Shown piece by piece: positions 6,134-60,370 of a stretch of DNA of 64,000 nucleotides; within the stretch, counting starts at the first letter, position 1, and each line of letters begins with the position of its first letter. Source of the DNA: a virus (lineage: Duplodnaviria; Caudoviricetes); IMG/VR virus record IMGVR_UViG_2675903060_000003, positions 1 to 64,000 of that record. One strand, 5' to 3'. A program made the translations under genes and the position numbers. The notes beneath the pieces were generated by a model. It searched no databases, was not told the DNA's origin, and saw nothing but the letters and a program-made list of their open reading frames with translations.

Positions 6134-8065
6134 GTGACCACCGATGTGCAGCAGCTCGCCGACGAGCAGGAAGATGGCAAGGCCGGCCTGGCTGCCGCGG
6201 TGGCCGCGGCCCGCGAGCTGAAGAAGAAGGGCTACCGCTACCGGCACGCGCTCGTACCTCACGCGGTTGTGGCGGGCACCTGGTGCACGGGTGTCACCTT
6301 GCACGCGTTCGCGGTGCCCGCTTGGCAGGTGCTGGCCGGTGAGGTGGTGGTGGCTGCGGTGGCCGCGGCAGGGTTCCCGAAGGCACGCACGCGTCTGCGT
6401 CGCCGTATCTGGTGGACCGCCGCCGGCATGTGGCTGCCGATCGCGGCCGAGTTGGGTGCAGGCGACTGGCGGTTGTCGCTGCTCGCCGGCGTAGGTGGTC
6501 TGCTGGCGATCCCGCGGGTGTGGCGGTACCGCATCTCCATCGTCCGCCCGACCAAGAGCCGCCGGGAACTGGCCAGGAGCAAGCAGCGGGCGGCTTTGGA
6601 GGCGAAAGCTCCGGACCCGAACGTGACCGTATGGGCGGCGAAGACCGCCTCGCGCAAGGGCTCCCTGCCTGGGTCGAAGTTGACGAATCGGACCCCGTTC
6701 GAGTACGGGGTCCGCTACCGGATCGAACTGGACGGGCAGACCACCGAAGACGCGACGGGTGCCCGCAAGCAGATCTGCGCCGACTTCGGCAAAGCCCTCG
6801 ATTACCTGCTGGTCGACGAGACCGACGACGGGCTGCTCAACGCGGCAGAGCTGACCATTCTGGACCGACTCGCCGTCGAGGACGTGCAGCCATGGACCGA
6901 GCCGGGGCTCGACCTCGAAACCGGCGTGTGGCGGATCGCCCCGTTCGCTGACGGCCGCGGCGACGCAGCGCTGCAGGTGTGGGAGCCCGGCTCGGGGCCG
7001 CTGCCGGTCGGCGTGTTCGGCGCGATGCGCGTCGGGAAGTCCAGCATCATCAAGCAGGCTGCCGTCGAGTTCCGCAAGGCCACAGAACGCGGCTACCCGA
7101 TCCACCTCATCTACATGGACCCGCAGCGCGGCCAGTCCGCCCCCTCGGTTCTCCCCTACGTGTCCGAACCTGCGCTCGGCATCGACGAGATCCGGACCCG
7201 GCTGCTGCAGTTGCGGCAGGAGATGAACGACCGTAACGCCTACCTGGCGAAGGTCGAACACGTCGACAGCAACGGCTTCAAGCAGCGGGGCGTCCAGTCC
7301 TACGACCGGCCCGGCGCCCACGGCCTGCCGATGCTCATCGCCCCCATCGACGAGTTCCACAAGGTGGCGCAGTACGACGACCTCGCCGAGATCGTGCACG
7401 AGCTGATGGCCGAAGGGTCGAAGTGCGGCATCATGCCGTGGATCCTCAACCAGGACGCGATCGTCGACTCTCTGGGCGGCGGCGAGATCCTGCGTCTGCT
7501 CAACTCCGGCAACCTCGTCGTGCTGCGGACCGGCGACACTTACACGGCGCAGGCCACGTTCGGGGCGCGGCTGGAGGCGTACCCGGACCGGATCAGGAAG
7601 ACGTTCCCCAATAGCAACAAGCACACCAAGGGCTGCGGCTACGTGCTCGGCGCCACCAGCCGATCAGTGATGATGCGCATCCGCGACGTCGCCAACCTGG
7701 GTGCGGTGCTCGGCGACGAACCCCCGCAGCCTATCCAGTGGATGTGCGGCACCTCCGCGCCCGCCGGCTCACCAGCGGAACCCGCCGCGGGCGACGACCA
7801 GGGCGAGCCCGGCGTCGAAGAGTTGCCGGACCTCGACCTGGACGGCAACGTCGTCGACTTCGTGGCGCTCGACCAGGAGCAGCAGACCAACGCGGAGCAG
7901 ACCATCCTGCGCCTGCTGGACGGGGCGGAGAACGGCCTGGACGCGGCCGACCTCACGCTCGGCGCGGGCCTGCCGCTGGTGACGGTGTTCCGAGTCGCGA
8001 CGGACCTGTGCCACGCCGGCGTGGTGAGGCAGGACGGCGACCGGTACGTGAAGGTCGCCTCGTGA
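6134..8065 (+). CDS. TraB-like FtsK/SpoIIIE DNA translocase
   Basis: N-terminal TMs, Walker A GAMRVGKS, Walker B IAPIDEFH, C-terminal winged helix. Confidence 0.85.
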   Translation: MTTDVQQLADEQEDGKAGLAAAVAAARELKKKGYRYRHALVPHAVVAGTWCTGVTLHAFAVPAWQVLAGEVVVAAVAAAGFPKARTRLRRRIWWTAAGMWLPIAAELGAGDWRLSLLAGVGGLLAIPRVWRYRISIVRPTKSRRELARSKQRAALEAKAPDPNVTVWAAKTASRKGSLPGSKLTNRTPFEYGVRYRIELDGQTTEDATGARKQICADFGKALDYLLVDETDDGLLNAAELTILDRLAVEDVQPWTEPGLDLETGVWRIAPFADGRGDAALQVWEPGSGPLPVGVFGAMRVGKSSIIKQAAVEFRKATERGYPIHLIYMDPQRGQSAPSVLPYVSEPALGIDEIRTRLLQLRQEMNDRNAYLAKVEHVDSNGFKQRGVQSYDRPGAHGLPMLIAPIDEFHKVAQYDDLAEIVHELMAEGSKCGIMPWILNQDAIVDSLGGGEILRLLNSGNLVVLRTGDTYTAQATFGARLEAYPDRIRKTFPNSNKHTKGCGYVLGATSRSVMMRIRDVANLGAVLGDEPPQPIQWMCGTSAPAGSPAEPAAGDDQGEPGVEELPDLDLDGNVVDFVALDQEQQTNAEQTILRLLDGAENGLDAADLTLGAGLPLVTVFRVATDLCHAGVVRQDGDRYVKVAS

Positions 8066-8066
8066 G

Positions 8067-8450
8067 TCAGCGGCGGATCCACTCCGGTTCCGGGATGTCG
8101 CTGGTGACCTTCCACAGCGGGTCTGGGAACCGTGACGGCCAGTCCTGGTACATGGCGTGCACGTACACGTTGCCGCCGACATCGCCGTGCTTGCGTCGGG
8201 CCTCGGCGAGTGTGTCCAAGAGCCGCTTGAGCGATTCGGCGGCGTACCTTCCGGGGCAGGTAAGCGCGCACATCGGCGCTTCTCCCAGCACTCCTGCCAT
8301 GAGCCGCACCCAGTTTGCCCGGTCCAACCATTTGGTCGGGTGGTATTTCGTCCGGTCGTCCCTTTCGTTCTCGACGTCGAGGGTCACCGACGTGATGGCG
8401 TCGGCTCGAACCATCCGGAACCCGTTCTCGGCCACCAGCCACGCTGTCAT
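8067..8450 (-). CDS. Hypothetical protein
   Basis: Protein-like ORF convergent with the TraB-like gene. Confidence 0.55.
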   Translation of the reverse strand: MTAWLVAENGFRMVRADAITSVTLDVENERDDRTKYHPTKWLDRANWVRLMAGVLGEAPMCALTCPGRYAAESLKRLLDTLAEARRKHGDVGGNVYVHAMYQDWPSRFPDPLWKVTSDIPEPEWIRR

Positions 8451-13560: not shown

Positions 13561-13920
13561 GTAAGCCTGCCCAGCCCCGACCTCCAAGCCGGGACGCGAA
13601 GCCGCACCGGGCAGGCATGTACCCGCTCTCCGTGTTTCCCGAGACAGGTCAGCAGGCCGCCCAGCGCACGTGGTAGGCGACCCGCCGAGCACGCCTCCTG
13701 GTCATCGGATGCGAGCACCGCGGCTACGTACCTGCACCACGACTTGAACGTGGGCCCTCCGCTGTATGAAGGCGGCGCTCTCACCAACTGAGCTATGCAG
13801 GCTTGGGCGGCTACCAGTCCCGGACTCGCACCGGCCCTGTCCCGCCGCCAGGGTGCCCCTTCGGGCCTGCGCCTCGACTATCCCACCGATATGAGGTGGT
13901 CCTCCACCTCTTATCGCCGA
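13561..13920 (-). ncRNA. Candidate large structured RNA surrounding the tRNA
   Basis: Several long G-U-containing helices, a 3-way junction and a cloverleaf-like domain; no credible ORF. Confidence 0.5.
13729..13802 (-). tRNA. tRNA with CAT anticodon (Met or Ile2), atypical
   Basis: GCCTGCA/TGCAGGT acceptor, GCTC-AGTTGGTGA-GAGC D arm, loop TTCATAC, CCACG-TTCAAGT-CGTGG T arm; C31-A39 mismatch; no encoded CCA. Confidence 0.85.
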
Positions 13921-56956: not shown

Positions 56957-57616
56957 TTATGGGGCTGGCGTGTCGGACGTAGCCTCTGCTACGGGATAGC
57001 GGTCGGCTGGCTCGCCGTAGTGCTCGCGGATCATTCGGATGTGATCCATGAGTTCCGGGTCGGGCCTGAAGCGCTCCCTGCCGAGCGGTATCCGGAGGTG
57101 GGCGAACTGCTTATGCCGCATCCGCTCAAGCTCCTCATGGCCGGGCTCGGTGGCGAGGATCTCGTCCGGCATGAGCGAGGTCATGCGGTATTTGAAGCTG
57201 GTCGTTGTACCGATCTTGATGTAGTTGCCGATTCGGACGTAGTACACGACCATCCGGCCCTCTTTGCGCGCCTCGTCGAGCCGTTGCTCGACGCGGGACC
57301 GCTGGTCCTCGTGGTGGCGCCGGGACAGGGCCAGGTCTTGCGCCTCCCAAGCATCAAGCTTCGCTTGGCGTTGGAGGTACTCTTCGTGCCGTTCCAGATG
57401 CTTGCCGCAGAGCGCAATGCCGTGCTCCCGCGATCCGGGGACCACCACGTAGCCGCACTGTTCGCCTGTCTCGGTAACCCCCACGCACAGAGGGCGCGAT
57501 CTCGGCACATCTACGTGGACTCTCGCCCCGCACCCGCACCGATATGCGCCCTTGCCGCGTAATGTGTCGATGCCCATCTTGCGGCTACATCCGCACGTGA
57601 CGGTAAGTTCTTGCAT
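56957..57616 (-). CDS. GIY-YIG/T5orf172-like protein with N-terminal Cys motifs
   Basis: VYYVRIGNYIKIGTT, LERMRHKQF, ERF. Confidence 0.75.
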   Translation of the reverse strand: MQELTVTCGCSRKMGIDTLRGKGAYRCGCGARVHVDVPRSRPLCVGVTETGEQCGYVVVPGSREHGIALCGKHLERHEEYLQRQAKLDAWEAQDLALSRRHHEDQRSRVEQRLDEARKEGRMVVYYVRIGNYIKIGTTTSFKYRMTSLMPDEILATEPGHEELERMRHKQFAHLRIPLGRERFRPDPELMDHIRMIREHYGEPADRYPVAEATSDTPAP

Positions 57617-57961
57617 GTCAGCCTGCTCCTAACAGGTTGGCCGCGCCCCGGGACGGCTGGAACCGTCGCCGGGGTTCGAATACCTGTTCATTATCGCAGG
57701 CCCGGCCGACTTTTCGGCTGGGAATGAGGCATTTATACGCCCATCCCAGAGAGCAAGTTGCAGGTCAGGGCGTGCCGCTGCCCAATTCATCGGGAAGGCC
57801 GAAATACTCCTCGACGGTCATCGACCGCTGCTCATCGGCGACGAACAACGGCAGGTGGGACGGCACTACATCGACGCCGCCCTCGCGTCGGAAGCATTGG
57901 AAGACCGGGGCAGGAGGGGAAGTGGTGCACATCTCTTCTCCGACGTTCCCGGACATGGTTA

Positions 57962-58040
57962 AGCCTCGCTGACTGGGCTCGAACCAGCGTCCATCCGGTT
58001 AGCAGAGCCGGATGCTCTACCACTGAGCTACAGCGAGGCT
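57962..58040 (-). tRNA. Aberrant tRNA-like RNA (pseudo tRNA-Ser GCT?)
   Basis: TAGCTCAGTGGTAGAGC D arm, GCTGG-TTCGAGC-CCAGT T arm, TCCGG/CCGGA stem with 9-nt loop CTCTGCTAA, 10-bp acceptor helix. Confidence 0.75.
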
Positions 58041-58057
58041 GCCACCATCATCGCGCA

Positions 58058-59473
58058 TCAGGGCGTGTGCCCGCCACCTGAAAGCGGACGAGACGGAAGA
58101 TCCGAGACGACCACGCCCGCCGCGAGACCGTGTGCGGCATGCTCGACCAGGTCCGGCTTGACCTGCTTGCCGCTGAATACGCCCGCGCGGCGCAGCAGCG
58201 ACGCCCACACCGGGTCGGCGACCGTCACCCCGTGCACGAGTTCCGGCGTCGGCTTGAACGCCGCCACACGGTGCTTGGCAGGGCTGGCGGTCCAGCCCGT
58301 CTCCGCCGGGTCAAGGCCCGCTTCCGCGCACGCCTGCTCGACGTCGGCGCGGGTGCACGTCACCAGCCCGGACAGCACCTCCCACGGCAGCGGCAGCGAC
58401 GCCCACACCTTCGTGTTCGGATCGACGTCGCCGCCCGTGCTGCGATGCCACCACGCCAAGTCCGCTGCCATAAGCCGCATCACCTTGCCAGGACATGCTG
58501 CGTCCAGCAGCGGCAGGGCGCCCATCGACTGCAGGCAGGCCAGCCAGCCGGCGCGGGCCGCGTTGTACGCCTGGGCGACGGTGTTCCACGTGGACGAGTC
58601 GTCGCCGCGGCGCACCACCATCGACATGCGGTTGAGCGGGCGAGTCTGCCAGACCCGCTCCAGCCGGTCGGCGCATTGCCGCATCACCGCATACCAGGCG
58701 CCCAGCATCTCTCCACGCTCGGCGTCGGCGAGCCGGGCCAGAACGGACGGCTTGGCGTACACGACGGCGATCATCGCCCAGTCGGTGTCCGGGTTTGCCT
58801 CGCACCGGGCCAGCAGCATCTGCGCCACGTCGTCGAACGGGTTGCCCCTGCCGTTCAGGCTGAACTGCCGGCGCAGGTTCCGCCGCGCGGTGAAATAGGC
58901 GACGAAGCAGGCCGCGTCAGGGTCGGCGACGAACCTCTCCTCGGTGATGGTCGCCGCGAACCCGCTCCGGCCGACAAGCAGCAGCCGGCGCATCTCCTGG
59001 CCGTCGCCGAGCCTGCCCGCCTTGGCCGCGAGCCGCCCGAGCGCCCGGAATCGGCGGTTGTACTGCCGCTTGGGCACGTCGATGCCCGCTTCCCGGCGGG
59101 CGGCGCGGTCGAGCCGGTCGTGCTTGAAGTCCGCCCGGTCCGGGCTCCAGCCGATCTCCTGCCCGGCGAGCTGGGCGACCTCGGCCAGGGACACCGGGTC
59201 GCCAGGGTCGCGCTCGGCCCACTCCTGACGGTCGAACAGCCGCGCGACCGCAGCGAGCTGGTATGCGCCATCCTGCGGCTTGGCGAACTCCTCCGTCATG
59301 GACGACACCCAGCCGAGGCGCCGGTACGAGTGCGCCGCGGCCCGGTCCAGGGTCAACCGCTCCGGAGTCGAGAGCGAACCGTCCAGGGCGAGCGAGATCA
59401 GGTCTGCGACGTCCTCTGGGCGCAGGCGACGGTCGAGGGAGCGGTGCAGTTCGAGCAGCGGCTTGTTCGTCAT
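58058..59473 (-). CDS. Conserved-looking helical protein of unknown function (471 aa)
   Basis: Long ORF; motifs RPEDVA, KRQYNRRFR, RGDDSSTWN, GKVMRLMAAD, LPLPWEV. Confidence 0.85.
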   Translation of the reverse strand: MTNKPLLELHRSLDRRLRPEDVADLISLALDGSLSTPERLTLDRAAAHSYRRLGWVSSMTEEFAKPQDGAYQLAAVARLFDRQEWAERDPGDPVSLAEVAQLAGQEIGWSPDRADFKHDRLDRAARREAGIDVPKRQYNRRFRALGRLAAKAGRLGDGQEMRRLLLVGRSGFAATITEERFVADPDAACFVAYFTARRNLRRQFSLNGRGNPFDDVAQMLLARCEANPDTDWAMIAVVYAKPSVLARLADAERGEMLGAWYAVMRQCADRLERVWQTRPLNRMSMVVRRGDDSSTWNTVAQAYNAARAGWLACLQSMGALPLLDAACPGKVMRLMAADLAWWHRSTGGDVDPNTKVWASLPLPWEVLSGLVTCTRADVEQACAEAGLDPAETGWTASPAKHRVAAFKPTPELVHGVTVADPVWASLLRRAGVFSGKQVKPDLVEHAAHGLAAGVVVSDLPSRPLSGGGHTP

Positions 59474-59536
59474 CTGGGGGCTCCAGGGTTGGTGTGGCGA
59501 GGGTAGCCCGGCCGCGCAGCCGGGCGCGAAGGGGTT

Positions 59537-60370
59537 TCAGGCGCGCCGGCTGGTGTGGTCGTCCCGGCCTGCCGGTTGGAGAGGCCGCCGCCTGTAGGAC
59601 TTGACCGGCTCTACGCGCGCCCTCGTCAGGTCGGTGTACTGCTCGGCGTCGTACTCGGCCCGGCACTGCCGGCACCGCGCCCCCGCGGGCTGCCCGTCGT
59701 CGTCCAGCAGCTCAAACAACTCCGGATAGCCGCAGTCGCAGTACACCCCGGACAGGTGCCTGCTCGGCTGCTTGGTGTCGGTGAGGAAGCGCCTGCACCG
59801 GTGGGCGAGGTCGAGCAGGTCGAGGCCGGCGTCGGCCCCGTCCAGGTCAACGAACTCGCCGTCGCGGAGCATCGGTTCGGCGCCGAGCGCGAGCAGCGCG
59901 TCCAGGTGGGCGGCGAGGATCGTCCACGACTGCGAGAACACGACGCCGTCGCGGCGCCGGCGGGACGTGGCGGTGTCGAGAGGCTTCAGCCGGGCGACGG
60001 TACGGACCCGCTCCTCCCAGGAGACGAGCGTGGCGAGGATCAGTCGCAGCAACTCGTCGGCGGCGAGGGACAGCGGCACCGGGGCGGTCTTGGAGACGGC
60101 GACGATGGGGCCGCCTGCGACGGCCTGGAAGGTCTTGTCGAGCCGCTGGTGGACGCGCACGAACAGCTCGGGCAGGTCGTTGAGCGCCTTGCTGATCGCG
60201 TTCCGGTCCTGGGGGCAGAACGCCTGGTAGGTGAGCGCCGGGAGGCGGACTGTACGGCCGCTCTCGTCGGAGAGGCGCGGTGCTGAGCAGCGGTCGCCGC
60301 GGGCGCACTCCCGCTGGCCATCCTCGGTGTAGTCGTCCGGAGCTGAGTGAATCCAGTATCGGCGTGACAC
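59537..60370 (-). CDS. Zn-binding phage protein (possible transcription regulator)
   Basis: N- and C-terminal Cys pairs (CDCG, CRQC); GGAGG RBS. Confidence 0.7.
   Translation of the reverse strand: MSRRYWIHSAPDDYTEDGQRECARGDRCSAPRLSDESGRTVRLPALTYQAFCPQDRNAISKALNDLPELFVRVHQRLDKTFQAVAGGPIVAVSKTAPVPLSLAADELLRLILATLVSWEERVRTVARLKPLDTATSRRRRDGVVFSQSWTILAAHLDALLALGAEPMLRDGEFVDLDGADAGLDLLDLAHRCRRFLTDTKQPSRHLSGVYCDCGYPELFELLDDDGQPAGARCRQCRAEYDAEQYTDLTRARVEPVKSYRRRPLQPAGRDDHTSRRA

What the first reader, a model, noticed from the sequence alone, without database searches (positions are those of the whole stretch)
57955..59473. 471-aa unknown protein followed 17 nt later by a tRNA-like RNA with a 9-nt anticodon loop and over-long acceptor helix
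Seen: canonical D and T arms, but the loop is CTCTGCTAA (the Ser-GCT loop CTGCTAA plus an extra CT), the variable arm is short, and the acceptor helix is 10 bp, extendable by ATGGT/ACCAT. It is probably co-transcribed with the Arg/Trp-motif-rich helical protein. Inference: a protein-RNA pair analogous to Ro/Y-RNA or RNA-repair loci, an anti-defence decoy, or a frameshift-type tRNA. Intact stems argue against random decay.
Basis: partly seen in the sequence, partly recalled or inferred. Interest (0 to 1): 0.7.

Follow-up and report, generated by a model that had tools for sequence, protein, structure and literature searches.

The report
Mobile dark protein plus odd tRNA
A prophage gene for a protein of unknown fold and the odd tRNA-shaped RNA beside it belong to a two-part cassette that moves between genomes and is found in hundreds of bacteria, plasmids and phages; the RNA keeps a perfect tRNA body while most of its anticodon loop drifts freely in sequence and length, and I found no description of it in the papers searched.

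Summary
On the minus strand, a 471-aa ORF (58058-59473) is followed 20 nt later by a tRNA-shaped gene (57964-58037; Rfam tRNA 60.4 bits) with a 9-nt anticodon loop, CUCUGCUAA.

In all ~100 homologous loci examined, one to three tRNA-like genes of one family lie right beside the protein gene. These loci come from actinomycete chromosomes, Streptomyces and Hymenobacter plasmids, and IMG/VR phage contigs of 36-71% GC.

- **RNA body:** it is under strong purifying selection (0.03 differences per site, against 0.21 at synonymous sites).
- **Constant part:** the anticodon stem end (GG/CC) and the first loop bases (C-U-C) are almost invariant.
- **Variable part:** the rest of the loop changes at about the neutral rate (0.18 per site). 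Loop length runs from 4 to 10 nt among 134 parsed copies, 47% of them not 7 nt, and one diverged copy has a 14-nt loop.
- **Consequence:** the RNA is not a codon-specific decoder, and the extra bases are not an assembly error.
- **Protein:** it has no Pfam, PHROG, NCBIfam or PADLOC match and no fold match, although the model is confident (pLDDT 92.5).
- **Mobility:** the cassette (~1.7 kb) is a discrete insertion. A 95-97% identical relative has a clean empty site.

The function is unknown. My best guess, at about 0.35, is a self-contained RNA-protein conflict module that works through tRNA mimicry. I found no description in the papers searched. This scan had noted the same stretch once before, but not the family.

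The parts
58058..59473 (-). Gene for a 471-aa protein of an uncharacterised ('dark') family. It is mostly alpha-helical, Arg/Trp-rich, and has many invariant polar residues.
   Evidence: ORF and GC3. No Pfam, PHROG, NCBIfam or PADLOC match. 727+ homologues, all named 'hypothetical'. 556 representatives of 50%-identity clusters. AF2 pLDDT 92.5 with no fold match.
57964..58037 (-). tRNA-shaped RNA gene: a class I cloverleaf, 74 nt including discriminator G. It belongs to a dedicated family that always lies beside the protein gene.
   Evidence: ARAGORN. Rfam 60.4 bits. Family covariance model R1 scores 91.0 bits. Compensatory changes in 13 of 21 pairs across 114 relatives.
57994..58012 (-). Anticodon arm: stem TCCGG/CCGGA with the 9-nt loop CUCUGCUAA (57999-58007). 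The closing GG...CC and the loop start C-U-C are the constant part in the family; the rest is the variable part.
   Evidence: Direct reading. Family statistics from 134 copies: loop position 1 is C in 134/134, position 2 is U in 132/134, position 3 is C in 119/134, and lengths run 4-10 nt. The rate of the variable part is 0.18 per site, about the synonymous rate.
57955..57963 (-). 3' trailer that pairs with the 5' leader (58038-58048). This extends the acceptor helix to 10 bp and adds ATGGT/ACCAT.
   Evidence: Direct reading. The feature is not conserved in the family, so it is probably precursor leader-trailer pairing or chance.
58038..58057 (-). 20-nt spacer between the stop codon and tRNA position +1. 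It contains GATGATGG, a motif that in chromosomal relatives lies just upstream of the protein start codon.
   Evidence: direct reading. No sigma-70-like promoter or intrinsic terminator was found in 57600-59800.

Best explanation
**What is shown.** The 471-aa gene and the tRNA-like gene are the two obligate halves of a conserved, horizontally mobile cassette of about 1.7 kb: protein gene plus one to three dedicated tRNA-shaped RNA genes.
- The RNA keeps a canonical class I tRNA body. Its closest normal relatives are tRNA-Asn and tRNA-Gly.
- It also keeps an invariant anticodon stem end and loop start, GG-C-U-C(U).
- The rest of the anticodon loop is free to change in sequence and in length.
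- The RNA is therefore a tRNA mimic, not a decoder of one particular codon.

**What is inferred.** The basic, highly conserved protein binds or acts on its own RNA through the tRNA elbow, the anticodon stem and the 5' side of the loop. Together they form a self-contained ribonucleoprotein conflict module.

**The version I commit to.** This is a toxin/antitoxin-like or abortive-infection-like unit. The protein acts on tRNAs, or on tRNA-handling machinery, that present a C32-U33-C34(-U35) anticodon loop. That loop start is found in the Lys-CUU, Gln-CUG, Glu-CUC and Arg-CCU type of tRNA. The abundant, co-encoded tRNA mimic is its decoy, inhibitor or cofactor.

**Confidence.** I put about 0.85 on the descriptive part. 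The figure given below (0.35) is for the mechanism.
For: 1. **Obligate linkage.** Family tRNA-likes lie within about 20-120 nt of the protein gene in all ~100 non-redundant loci examined:
   - the paralogue in the same genome, 60% identical, with two RNAs;
   - 5 class-level loci;
   - 80 species genomes;
   - Streptomyces, Hymenobacter and Miltoncostaea plasmids;
   - 16 IMG/VR contigs, some of only 36% GC.
   
   Within 110 Nonomuraea genomes, family-level RNA hits (79 bits or more) occur in only about 24 genomes, nearly always at the protein's coordinates.
2. **Real structured RNA.** 13 of 21 pairs show changes on both sides, in 265 cells; 0 of 500 shuffles reach this.
3. **Evolutionary rates in 28 independent locus pairs.**
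   - synonymous sites 0.21; non-synonymous sites 0.06;
   - tRNA body 0.030 per site; first three loop bases 0.0095; rest of loop 0.18.
   
   Loop lengths are 4:1, 5:1, 6:5, 7:71, 8:34, 9:21, 10:1, and there is a 14-nt loop in L100.
4. **Self-contained and mobile.**
   - No neighbouring gene is conserved across genera.
   - A same-genus genome, 95-97% identical in the flanks, lacks exactly 1728 nt (protein gene plus 2 RNAs) between convergent EamA and aminotransferase genes. Most congeners share that empty site.
   - Copies in other Nonomuraea lie at different loci, with similarity bounded to about 1.66 kb that ends at the RNA's 3' end.
5. **Typical carriers of conflict systems.** The cassette is in a prophage early/replication region here, on plasmids, and inside phage tRNA arrays beside Thg1-like, radical-SAM and phosphoesterase genes.
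6. **The protein looks like an enzyme or RNA binder.** It has a long conserved basic helix (KRQYNRRFR...) and invariant D, N, R, K and H residues. pN/pS is about 0.29.
Against: - No biochemical or expression evidence of any kind was obtained.
- The protein has no recognisable nuclease, transferase or RNA-binding fold, so 'acts on tRNA' is pure inference.
- Gene order (protein first, RNA after it, often with its own promoter-like motif) differs from described type III toxin-antitoxin systems.
- PADLOC found nothing.
- Many 7-nt loops are letter-for-letter those of real tRNAs: CUCUUAA matches Lys, and CUCUGGA, CUCCUAA and CUCAUAA match loops of canonical Gln, Arg and Met tRNAs in the fetched loci. 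Some loop types are also conserved over whole genera (CUCGGGA, CUAGGGA, CUCUGGGA). The loop is therefore not purely neutral, and some members could still decode.
- Long vertical retention in some genera, such as Lentzea with syntenic flanks, would also fit a housekeeping-like role.
- Orphan RNA pairs without the protein exist in two genomes.
Confidence: 0.35

Rival explanations
1. Counter-defence cassette. The RNAs are nuclease-resistant stand-ins or decoys for tRNAs attacked by anticodon nucleases (VapC-, MazF-, PrrC- or colicin-like). The protein would be a helper that matures, protects or charges them, or an inhibitor of the nuclease.
For: - The cassette sits in phage tRNA arrays, which the literature regards as putative anti-defence (PMC10264068, PMC12803027).
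- It lies in a prophage early region and on plasmids.
- Variation is concentrated on the 3' side of the loop. From my own knowledge, not checked here, mycobacterial VapCs cut there. PMC10264068 argues that loop mutations in phage tRNAs give nuclease insensitivity.
- Several loops equal real tRNA loops.
Against: - A replacement tRNA should keep its anticodon, yet the anticodon part changes at about the synonymous rate, and loops of 4-6 and 9-14 nt occur.
- Acceptor pair 1-72 and the discriminator are not conserved, so no single charging identity is apparent.
- The constant CUC(U) start is kept even in 36%-GC phages, where CUN anticodons do not fit codon usage.
- Stand-alone chromosomal insertions between housekeeping genes are unusual for anti-defence genes.
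Confidence: 0.17
2. Recoding tRNAs. The RNAs are real decoders, either +1 frameshift (four-base) suppressors or missense suppressors. The protein would be their dedicated charging, modifying or delivery factor.
For: - 8-nt loops are common (34 of 134 copies), and forms such as CUCUUGGA and CUCUGGGA recur across phyla.
- U33 is kept, the base before last in the loop is usually a purine, and G is almost absent from the last loop position, as in working anticodon loops.
- The tRNA elbow is canonical.
- Earlier notes of this scan describe phage four-base tRNAs that gate a neighbouring gene. These are unchecked leads.
Against: - The protein ORFs are intact without any frameshift.
- No site complementary to the loop recurs at a fixed position in or before the protein gene, and the start regions do not co-vary with the loops.
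- The anticodon is not conserved between close relatives.
- Loops of 4-6 nt cannot decode.
- Stand-alone cassettes contain no other gene that could be a target.
- An all-helical protein with no detectable similarity to either synthetase class is unlikely to be a charging enzyme.
Confidence: 0.13
3. Selfish mobile element. The protein is a new kind of recombinase or homing enzyme, and the tRNA-like DNA or RNA forms the element's end or cofactor.
For: - There is a discrete 1.7-kb insertion with a clean empty site and no obvious target duplication.
- Copies sit at different loci in congeners, with sharp boundaries. The right boundary falls at the RNA's 3' end, often just after an encoded CC.
- The cassette has been transferred across phyla, to a Hymenobacter plasmid.
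Against: - Genomes carry one copy, or two diverged ones (60% identity here), never several identical copies.
- No similarity was found to any transposase or recombinase fold or family.
- The left boundary is ragged: about 45 extra nt precede the conserved upstream motif at the one dated insertion.
- Strong purifying selection acts on a complete tRNA tertiary-structure set, which a DNA end would not need.
Confidence: 0.1
4. Ordinary explanation: a decaying or duplicated tRNA gene that happens to lie beside an unrelated hypothetical prophage gene, or an integrase attachment-site remnant.
For: Prophages often carry tRNA genes and integrate at them. A tRNA-Met gene lies at 13728-13802 in this window, and real tRNA genes are near several homologous loci.
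Against: - Linkage is universal across about 100 loci from several phyla.
- Compensatory changes occur in all four stems.
- The body evolves about 7 times more slowly than synonymous sites.
- The gene is a full-length cloverleaf, not a 3' fragment.
Confidence: 0.02

Closest known systems
Phage and plasmid tRNA arrays ('tRNA array units'), and phage tRNAs with anticodon-loop changes proposed to evade anticodon nucleases (PMC10264068; PMC12803027)
   Same: Both are tRNA-type genes carried by mobile elements. In at least 6 of 16 IMG/VR contigs the cassette sits inside such an array. In both cases the variation is concentrated in the anticodon loop.
   Different: Here one tRNA family is tied to one protein family. 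The anticodon itself is not conserved, and loop length varies from 4 to 14 nt. The cassette also occurs alone in chromosomes, and this window has no array.
Laboratory +1 frameshift-suppressor tRNAs (sufD, sufA6/sufB2, sufJ) and the rare natural tRNAs with enlarged loops (yeast mitochondrial tRNA-Thr; phage tRNAs cited in PMC5009743)
   Same: Both have an otherwise normal tRNA with an 8- or 9-nt anticodon loop.
   Different: No matching four-base codon or frameshift site was found. Loop length and sequence are unstable between close relatives. There is an obligate protein partner. PMC5009743 states that almost all tRNAs have standard loop sizes, whereas in this family 47% do not.
Ro60 (Rsr) with Y RNA / YrlA, whose RNA has a tRNA-like domain
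   Same: Both have a protein gene next to a gene for a tRNA-mimicking RNA, and a presumed ribonucleoprotein.
   Different: No TROVE or vWA domain was detected, and the fold searches listed no Ro60 structure. The RNA here is a complete cloverleaf with an anticodon arm, not a Y RNA with a Ro-binding stem.
Type III toxin-antitoxin / abortive-infection systems (ToxIN, AbiQ/antiQ, CptIN)
   Same: Both are small, self-contained protein-plus-structured-RNA modules, patchily distributed on plasmids, prophages and chromosomes. This is the logic I propose.
   Different: In those systems the antitoxin is a tandem repeat array upstream of the toxin, and the toxin is a ToxN/AbiQ-fold endoribonuclease. Here the RNA is a tRNA mimic, usually downstream. 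The protein is 470 aa with a different, unmatched fold, and PADLOC gives no hit.
Non-decoding tRNA-like stable RNAs of phages
   Same: Both are tRNA-framed RNAs in phage tRNA regions that probably do not read codons.
   Different: Those RNAs replace or grossly expand the anticodon arm and have no known dedicated protein. Here the arm is intact, only the loop varies, and a protein partner is always present. I did not test this similarity.

Membership tests
Canonical elongator tRNA (Rfam RF00005) | Cloverleaf with D, anticodon and T arms and the conserved tertiary-interaction nucleotides | tested here: met
   Rfam 60.4 bits against a gathering score of 29. U8, A14, G18-G19, a G15/C48-type pair, and T-loop UUCGAGC with A58 are read directly.
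Canonical elongator tRNA (Rfam RF00005) | 7-nt anticodon loop | tested here: not met
   The loop here is 9 nt. In the family, 63 of 134 loops are not 7 nt.
Canonical elongator tRNA (Rfam RF00005) | Anticodon under purifying selection, with stable identity elements (pair 1-72, discriminator) | tested here: not met
   The variable loop part differs at 0.18 per site, against 0.21 at synonymous sites and 0.03 in the body. Pair 1-72 is CG 55, UA 26, GC 12, others 21; the discriminator is G 67, A 28, U 15, C 4.
+1 frameshift-suppressor / four-base-decoding tRNA | One extra nucleotide in the anticodon loop (8 nt) | tested here: not met
   The window's RNA has 9 nt. Among relatives, 34 of 134 have 8 nt.
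+1 frameshift-suppressor / four-base-decoding tRNA | A cognate four-base codon or frameshift site in a linked gene that co-varies with the loop | tested here: not met
   The protein ORFs are uninterrupted. Loop complements show no positional hot spot in or upstream of the gene, and no co-variation at the start codon. Genes outside the cassette were not tested.
Ro60/Rsr - Y RNA module | TROVE-domain (plus vWA) protein | tested here: not met
   No Pfam hit at E <= 1 except a sub-threshold zf-HC2 match. None in 46 diverse members.
Ro60/Rsr - Y RNA module | Ro60-like helical ring fold | tested here: inconclusive
   No Ro60 structure appears among the Foldseek or VIA-align matches. A missing match does not prove that the folds differ.
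Type III toxin-antitoxin (ToxIN-like) | Tandem-repeat RNA antitoxin upstream of a ToxN/AbiQ-fold endoribonuclease | tested here: not met
   The RNA is one to three tRNA mimics, mostly downstream. There is no PADLOC or Pfam hit.
Type III toxin-antitoxin (ToxIN-like) | The protein is toxic and is neutralised by its RNA | not testable with these tools
   This needs expression experiments.
Integrase attachment site or tRNA 3'-end duplicate at an island border | A partial tRNA copy (anticodon loop to 3' end) identical to a host tRNA, at the edge of an element that has an integrase | tested here: not met
   The gene is a full-length cloverleaf with compensatory changes in the acceptor stem. It is only 74% identical to the nearest host tRNAs. 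It lies in the interior of the prophage, next to replication genes.
Phage/plasmid tRNA array unit | A cluster of many tRNA genes covering most amino acids | tested here: not met
   The window has only this RNA and one tRNA-Met 44 kb away. Relatives L068, L102, L105, L106, L108, L113 and L115 are inside arrays.

The most novel reading that the evidence does not exclude
This is a previously unrecognised class of mobile ribonucleoprotein. An enzyme of a new fold uses a dedicated tRNA-shaped RNA as an obligate cofactor or handle. The RNA would be recognised through GG-CUC(U) of the anticodon arm and the tRNA elbow. With it the enzyme would enter, block or modify the cell's tRNA-handling machinery (ribosome, EF-Tu, processing or modifying enzymes). 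That would make it a new principle of translation-directed conflict between bacteria, plasmids and phages, and the first large natural family of tRNA genes in which anticodon-loop size is not fixed.
Probability: 0.3. Interest if true: 0.9.

Novelty: categorically new. Interest (0 to 1): 0.82.

Why it matters
Natural tRNAs with anticodon loops that are not 7 nt long are regarded as very rare exceptions (PMC5009743). This family has well over a hundred members, and nearly half have loops of another length. Every intact protein homologue examined has one of these RNAs beside it, and the protein family has more than 550 clusters at 50% identity with no known domain or fold.

- **It gives both halves a handle.** The pairing offers a functional lead for a sizeable 'dark' protein family, and an experimentally tractable two-gene system of about 1.7 kb.
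- **It bears on open questions.** It is relevant to what the non-decoding tRNA-like genes in phage tRNA arrays do, and to how tRNA mimicry is used in conflicts between phages, plasmids and hosts.
- **It may be useful.** The protein probably recognises the tRNA shape plus a short loop motif and tolerates any loop length. If so, it could serve as a tRNA-directed binding or engineering tool.

Tried and rejected
**Protein annotation.**
- Pfam, PHROGs, NCBIfam and PADLOC gave nothing above threshold. Pfam also found nothing in 46 diverse members.
- A profile search against PDB sequences gave nothing.
- The ESM Atlas gave no usable hit.
- Fold searches on the full model: Foldseek best E 0.87; VIA-align best Z 6.3, to generic four-helix bundles.
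- Fold searches on the most conserved C-terminal domain (residues 280-462, pLDDT 88.7): Foldseek E 1.4 or worse; VIA Z 3.8 or lower.

**Sequenced phages.** There is no DNA or protein match to the protein gene among 50,697 phage records.

**Literature.** Six full-text searches found no description of this protein or RNA family.

**Expression.** No RNA holder is listed for this stretch. The only DNA holder is probably the source assembly, kept as contigs, so I did not use read laying and could not make the read-level check of the extra bases.

**Tools.** I therefore studied neighbouring genes with my own ORF calls.

**Ideas rejected.**
- *Conserved partner genes:* no neighbour is conserved across genera.
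- *Four-base gating of the protein gene:* no positional hot spot of loop complements and no co-variation with the start region.
- *Terminal repeats or target duplication at the one dated insertion:* only a 7-nt imperfect inverted match (TCCTGAG) near both ends and a GCTCT 8 nt from the junction, both within chance.
- *Loop hypermutation:* rejected, because the rate is about the synonymous rate, not above it.
- *Promoters and terminators:* none by the consensus scans, although those consensus patterns fit actinomycetes poorly.

**Unpublished genomes.** G429, G006 and G424 appeared only as matches to flanking housekeeping genes.
Full report
**1. The observation.** On the minus strand, a 471-codon ORF (58058-59473; GC3 0.90) ends 20 nt before a tRNA-shaped gene.
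- ARAGORN reports the gene at 57963-58037.
- Rfam's tRNA model scores 60.4 bits (E 1.3e-12) at 57964-58037 and needs a 2-nt insertion in the anticodon loop.
- Read directly, it is a class I cloverleaf: acceptor CTCGCTG/CAGCGAG, a 4-bp D stem with loop AGTGGTA, anticodon stem TCCGG/CCGGA, a 9-nt loop CTCTGCTAA, variable loop TGGAC, a 5-bp T stem with loop TTCGAGC, and discriminator G.

The window from about 14 to 64 kb, and beyond it, is a prophage on the minus strand. It carries a tape-measure-size ORF, an antirepressor, a DNA-binding protein, and then primase/helicase, SSB and a Dam methylase just past the window. The pair therefore lies in the early/replication region.

**2. The pair is a conserved unit.** The same genome holds a paralogue of the protein (60% identity) on another contig, followed at once by two tRNA genes that are 81-83% identical to this one.

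The protein family is large. 727 or more proteins match at E <= 1e-3 in actinomycetes, all named 'hypothetical'. There are 556 representatives of 50%-identity clusters.

I fetched five loci from a class-wide genome sample, 80 loci from species genomes, three plasmid loci and 16 IMG/VR viral contigs. I scanned them with ARAGORN, a structural parser of my own, and a covariance model built from 114 unique family members.

Every locus has one to three tRNA-like genes of the same family next to the protein gene. They are usually 20-120 nt downstream and sometimes directly upstream. This holds for a Hymenobacter (Bacteroidota) plasmid, for viral contigs of 36-37% GC, and for the most diverged homologues (32-40% identity), where only the covariance model finds them.

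Within 110 Nonomuraea genomes, RNA hits at family level (79 bits or more) occur in about 24 genomes, almost always at the protein's coordinates. Two genomes have orphan RNA pairs, and two have protein remnants. In every Nonomuraea genome searched, the best hit outside the family is one housekeeping tRNA scoring about 71.7 bits. In this genome it is tRNA-Asn(GUU). By BLAST the nearest host tRNA is tRNA-Gly(GCC).

**3. Anatomy of the RNA family.** The four stems are supported by compensatory changes. 13 of 21 pairs change on both sides, in 265 cells, and no shuffle out of 500 reaches this. Sliding the 3' partners destroys the signal. My parser selected for pairing, so the percentage of cells paired is inflated, but the double changes are not affected by that.

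The D arm, variable loop, T arm and anticodon stem are nearly invariant. The acceptor stem co-varies freely, and neither pair 1-72 nor the discriminator is fixed.

The anticodon loop is different. In 134 copies adjacent to the protein gene:
- the stem always closes with GG...CC;
- the loop starts C (134/134), U (132/134), C (119/134, otherwise mostly A), then usually U;
- everything after that varies;
- loop length is 4 (1 copy), 5 (1), 6 (5), 7 (71), 8 (34), 9 (21) or 10 (1).

One diverged member has a 14-nt loop. The window's loop CUCUGCUAA recurs on a different stem in Cryptosporangium japonicum.

**4. Rates.** In 28 phylogenetically independent pairs of loci (84-97% gene identity), the proportions of differences were:

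| Part | Differences per site |
|---|---|
| Synonymous sites of the protein gene | 0.21 |
| Non-synonymous sites | 0.061 |
| tRNA body | 0.030 |
| First three loop bases | 0.0095 |
| Rest of the loop (edit distance, indels included) | 0.18 |

The body is therefore under strong purifying selection. The anticodon part drifts at roughly the neutral rate. It is not hypermutating, and it is not conserved as the anticodon of a working tRNA would be. Near-identical bodies carry different loops: CTCTTGGA against CTCTGGGA, CTCTTCAT against CTCTCT against CTCTT, and CTCTGGA against CTCTGGGA.

The loop is not fully free, however. G is almost absent from its last position (1 of 134), and the base before last is usually a purine. 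Some loops equal real tRNA loops, and some types persist across genera.

**5. The protein.** AlphaFold2 with a 120-sequence alignment gives a confident model (pLDDT 92.5, pTM 0.90). It is almost wholly helical, with one small hairpin at TPELVHGV.

Neither Foldseek against the PDB, nor VIA-align against 48,161 representative chains, finds more than generic helix bundles. The most conserved C-terminal domain, folded alone (pLDDT 88.7), matches nothing either.

Conserved features include a long basic helix (KRQYNRRFR...) and invariant or near-invariant polar residues: R16, D214, D292-S293, N297, N304, R307, K330, D338, H343, E411 and H414. The pN/pS ratio of about 0.29 shows a protein under purifying selection.

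**6. Mobility and context.** No neighbouring gene is shared across genera. Similarity between loci starts about 60-100 nt upstream of the ORF and stops within a few bases of the last RNA's 3' end, often just after an encoded CC.

The paralogous copy in this genome is a clean insertion. A congener whose flanks are 95-97% identical lacks exactly 1728 nt between convergent EamA and aminotransferase genes, whose stop codons overlap (CTAG) in the empty site. Most other Nonomuraea share that empty arrangement.

In about 20 other Nonomuraea genomes the cassette lies at different places. It also occurs on Streptomyces linear plasmids and a Hymenobacter plasmid. In at least six viral contigs it lies inside phage tRNA arrays, next to Thg1-like, radical-SAM (QueE-like) and phosphoesterase genes. 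Copy number is one, or two diverged copies, which does not look like an active insertion sequence.

**7. What it most likely is.**

*Shown:* an obligate, mobile, two-part cassette; an RNA that must keep the tRNA shape and the GG-CUC(U) motif but not a particular anticodon; and a conserved protein of unknown fold.

*Inferred:* the protein recognises its RNA through these constant features, and the two act together on something that handles tRNAs.

The carriers (prophage early region, plasmids, phage tRNA arrays, variable chromosomal sites), the patchy distribution and the self-sufficiency are typical of conflict systems. I commit, at about 0.35, to a toxin/antitoxin-like or abortive-infection-like module in which the tRNA mimic is decoy, inhibitor or cofactor of a tRNA-directed protein.

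The rivals are:
- a counter-defence decoy or replacement tRNA (0.17);
- true recoding tRNAs with a dedicated factor (0.13);
- a selfish element whose protein is a new recombinase (0.10).

The recoding idea was tested as far as possible. The ORFs need no frameshift, and loop complements show no fixed or co-varying site in or before the gene. Coincidence or decay is excluded.

**8. Comparison with what is known.** The closest described things are phage and plasmid tRNA arrays, nuclease-evading phage tRNAs (PMC10264068; PMC12803027), laboratory frameshift-suppressor tRNAs, Ro60/Y RNA, type III toxin-antitoxin pairs, and the unexplained tRNA-like RNAs of T4. Each shares one aspect, and none shares the defining combination; the membership table gives the details. 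Six literature searches found no description. A standard review states that almost all tRNAs have standard loop sizes, with a handful of exceptions (PMC5009743).

Earlier notes of this scan record the same stretch read once before. They also record other phage tRNA oddities on other DNA: four-base tRNAs that gate a neighbouring gene, and non-decoding tRNA look-alikes. I tested the gating idea here and did not find it.

**9. Verdict.** The function is unresolved, so the mechanism carries low confidence. The descriptive result is robust, appears to be new, and can be tested directly with a 1.7-kb construct.

Noticed in passing
G000 contig C37:36929-38656 (locus L097:12929-14656; outside the window): A second, diverged copy of the cassette (protein 60% identical, two tRNA-likes with 7-nt loops CUCUUAA and CUCGGGA). 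It is inserted between convergent EamA-transporter and aminotransferase genes, and the insertion altered the C-terminal codons of both.
   Followed up: yes
window 13728-13802 (-): A tRNA-Met(CAT) gene lies just outside the structural-gene end of the prophage (ORFs of tail and tape-measure size start at about 14.2 kb). It may be the prophage attachment site. The other prophage end lies beyond the window, past C19:235617, and was not located.
   Followed up: no
window 56957-57616 (-): A 219-aa ORF just downstream of the pair carries a weak T5orf172/MUG113 (GIY-YIG-related) domain (PHROG 8604). It could be a homing-type nuclease. It is not conserved beside the cassette in other loci.
   Followed up: partly
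window 57765-57956 (-): The ATG of a 63-aa ORF overlaps the ACCAT of the tRNA trailer helix. The ORF is conserved (80% identity) only in the related Nonomuraea prophage L016, so it belongs to the prophage and not to the cassette.
   Followed up: partly
L068:72-5919 (Micromonospora maritima): An array of about 30 tRNA genes lies directly upstream of the protein gene. It ends with a family member that has a 10-nt loop (CTCTCGCTTT) and AA instead of UA at positions 8-9.
   Followed up: partly
L100:5862-5946 and its neighbours (Miltoncostaea oceani 816-kb plasmid): The most diverged homologue (32% identity) has a tRNA-like gene with a 14-nt anticodon loop and an enlarged D loop just upstream. Nearby are two peptidyl-tRNA hydrolase genes, an RNA ligase family gene, a nucleotidyltransferase gene and HNH nuclease genes, which together look like a tRNA-repair-type island.
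   Followed up: partly
L127-L134 and L125, between the ORF stop and the first tRNA-like: Chromosomal Nonomuraea copies share a promoter-like motif (GGTGGCG ... CA[C/G]ACTGG) about 8-12 nt before the first RNA. They also share an A-rich/GTCGA motif plus GCGATGATGG upstream of the ORF. The prophage copy in the window keeps only GATGATGG, before the RNA.
   Followed up: no
G472:C6:5600-5764 and G402:C4:545084-545233: These are pairs of family tRNA-likes (79-82 bits) in genomes where the protein was not found with this query. They are either orphan RNAs or remnants of cassettes.
   Followed up: partly
L019, L020, L023 (about 100-400 nt after the cassette, opposite strand): A genuine tRNA-Lys(CTT) gene faces the cassette in several Streptosporangiaceae. 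tRNA-Arg, tRNA-Gly/Val or tRNA-Val genes lie within a few kb in other loci. The cassette therefore often sits near tRNA genes, which are known integration hot spots.
   Followed up: no
L106:4208-4921 and L105:4786-5817, 7613-8353: In 36-37% GC viral contigs the cassette's neighbours include a Thg1-like tRNA 5'-end guanylyltransferase and two radical-SAM proteins, one of which also matches a 4Fe-4S cluster domain (Fer4_12).
   Followed up: no
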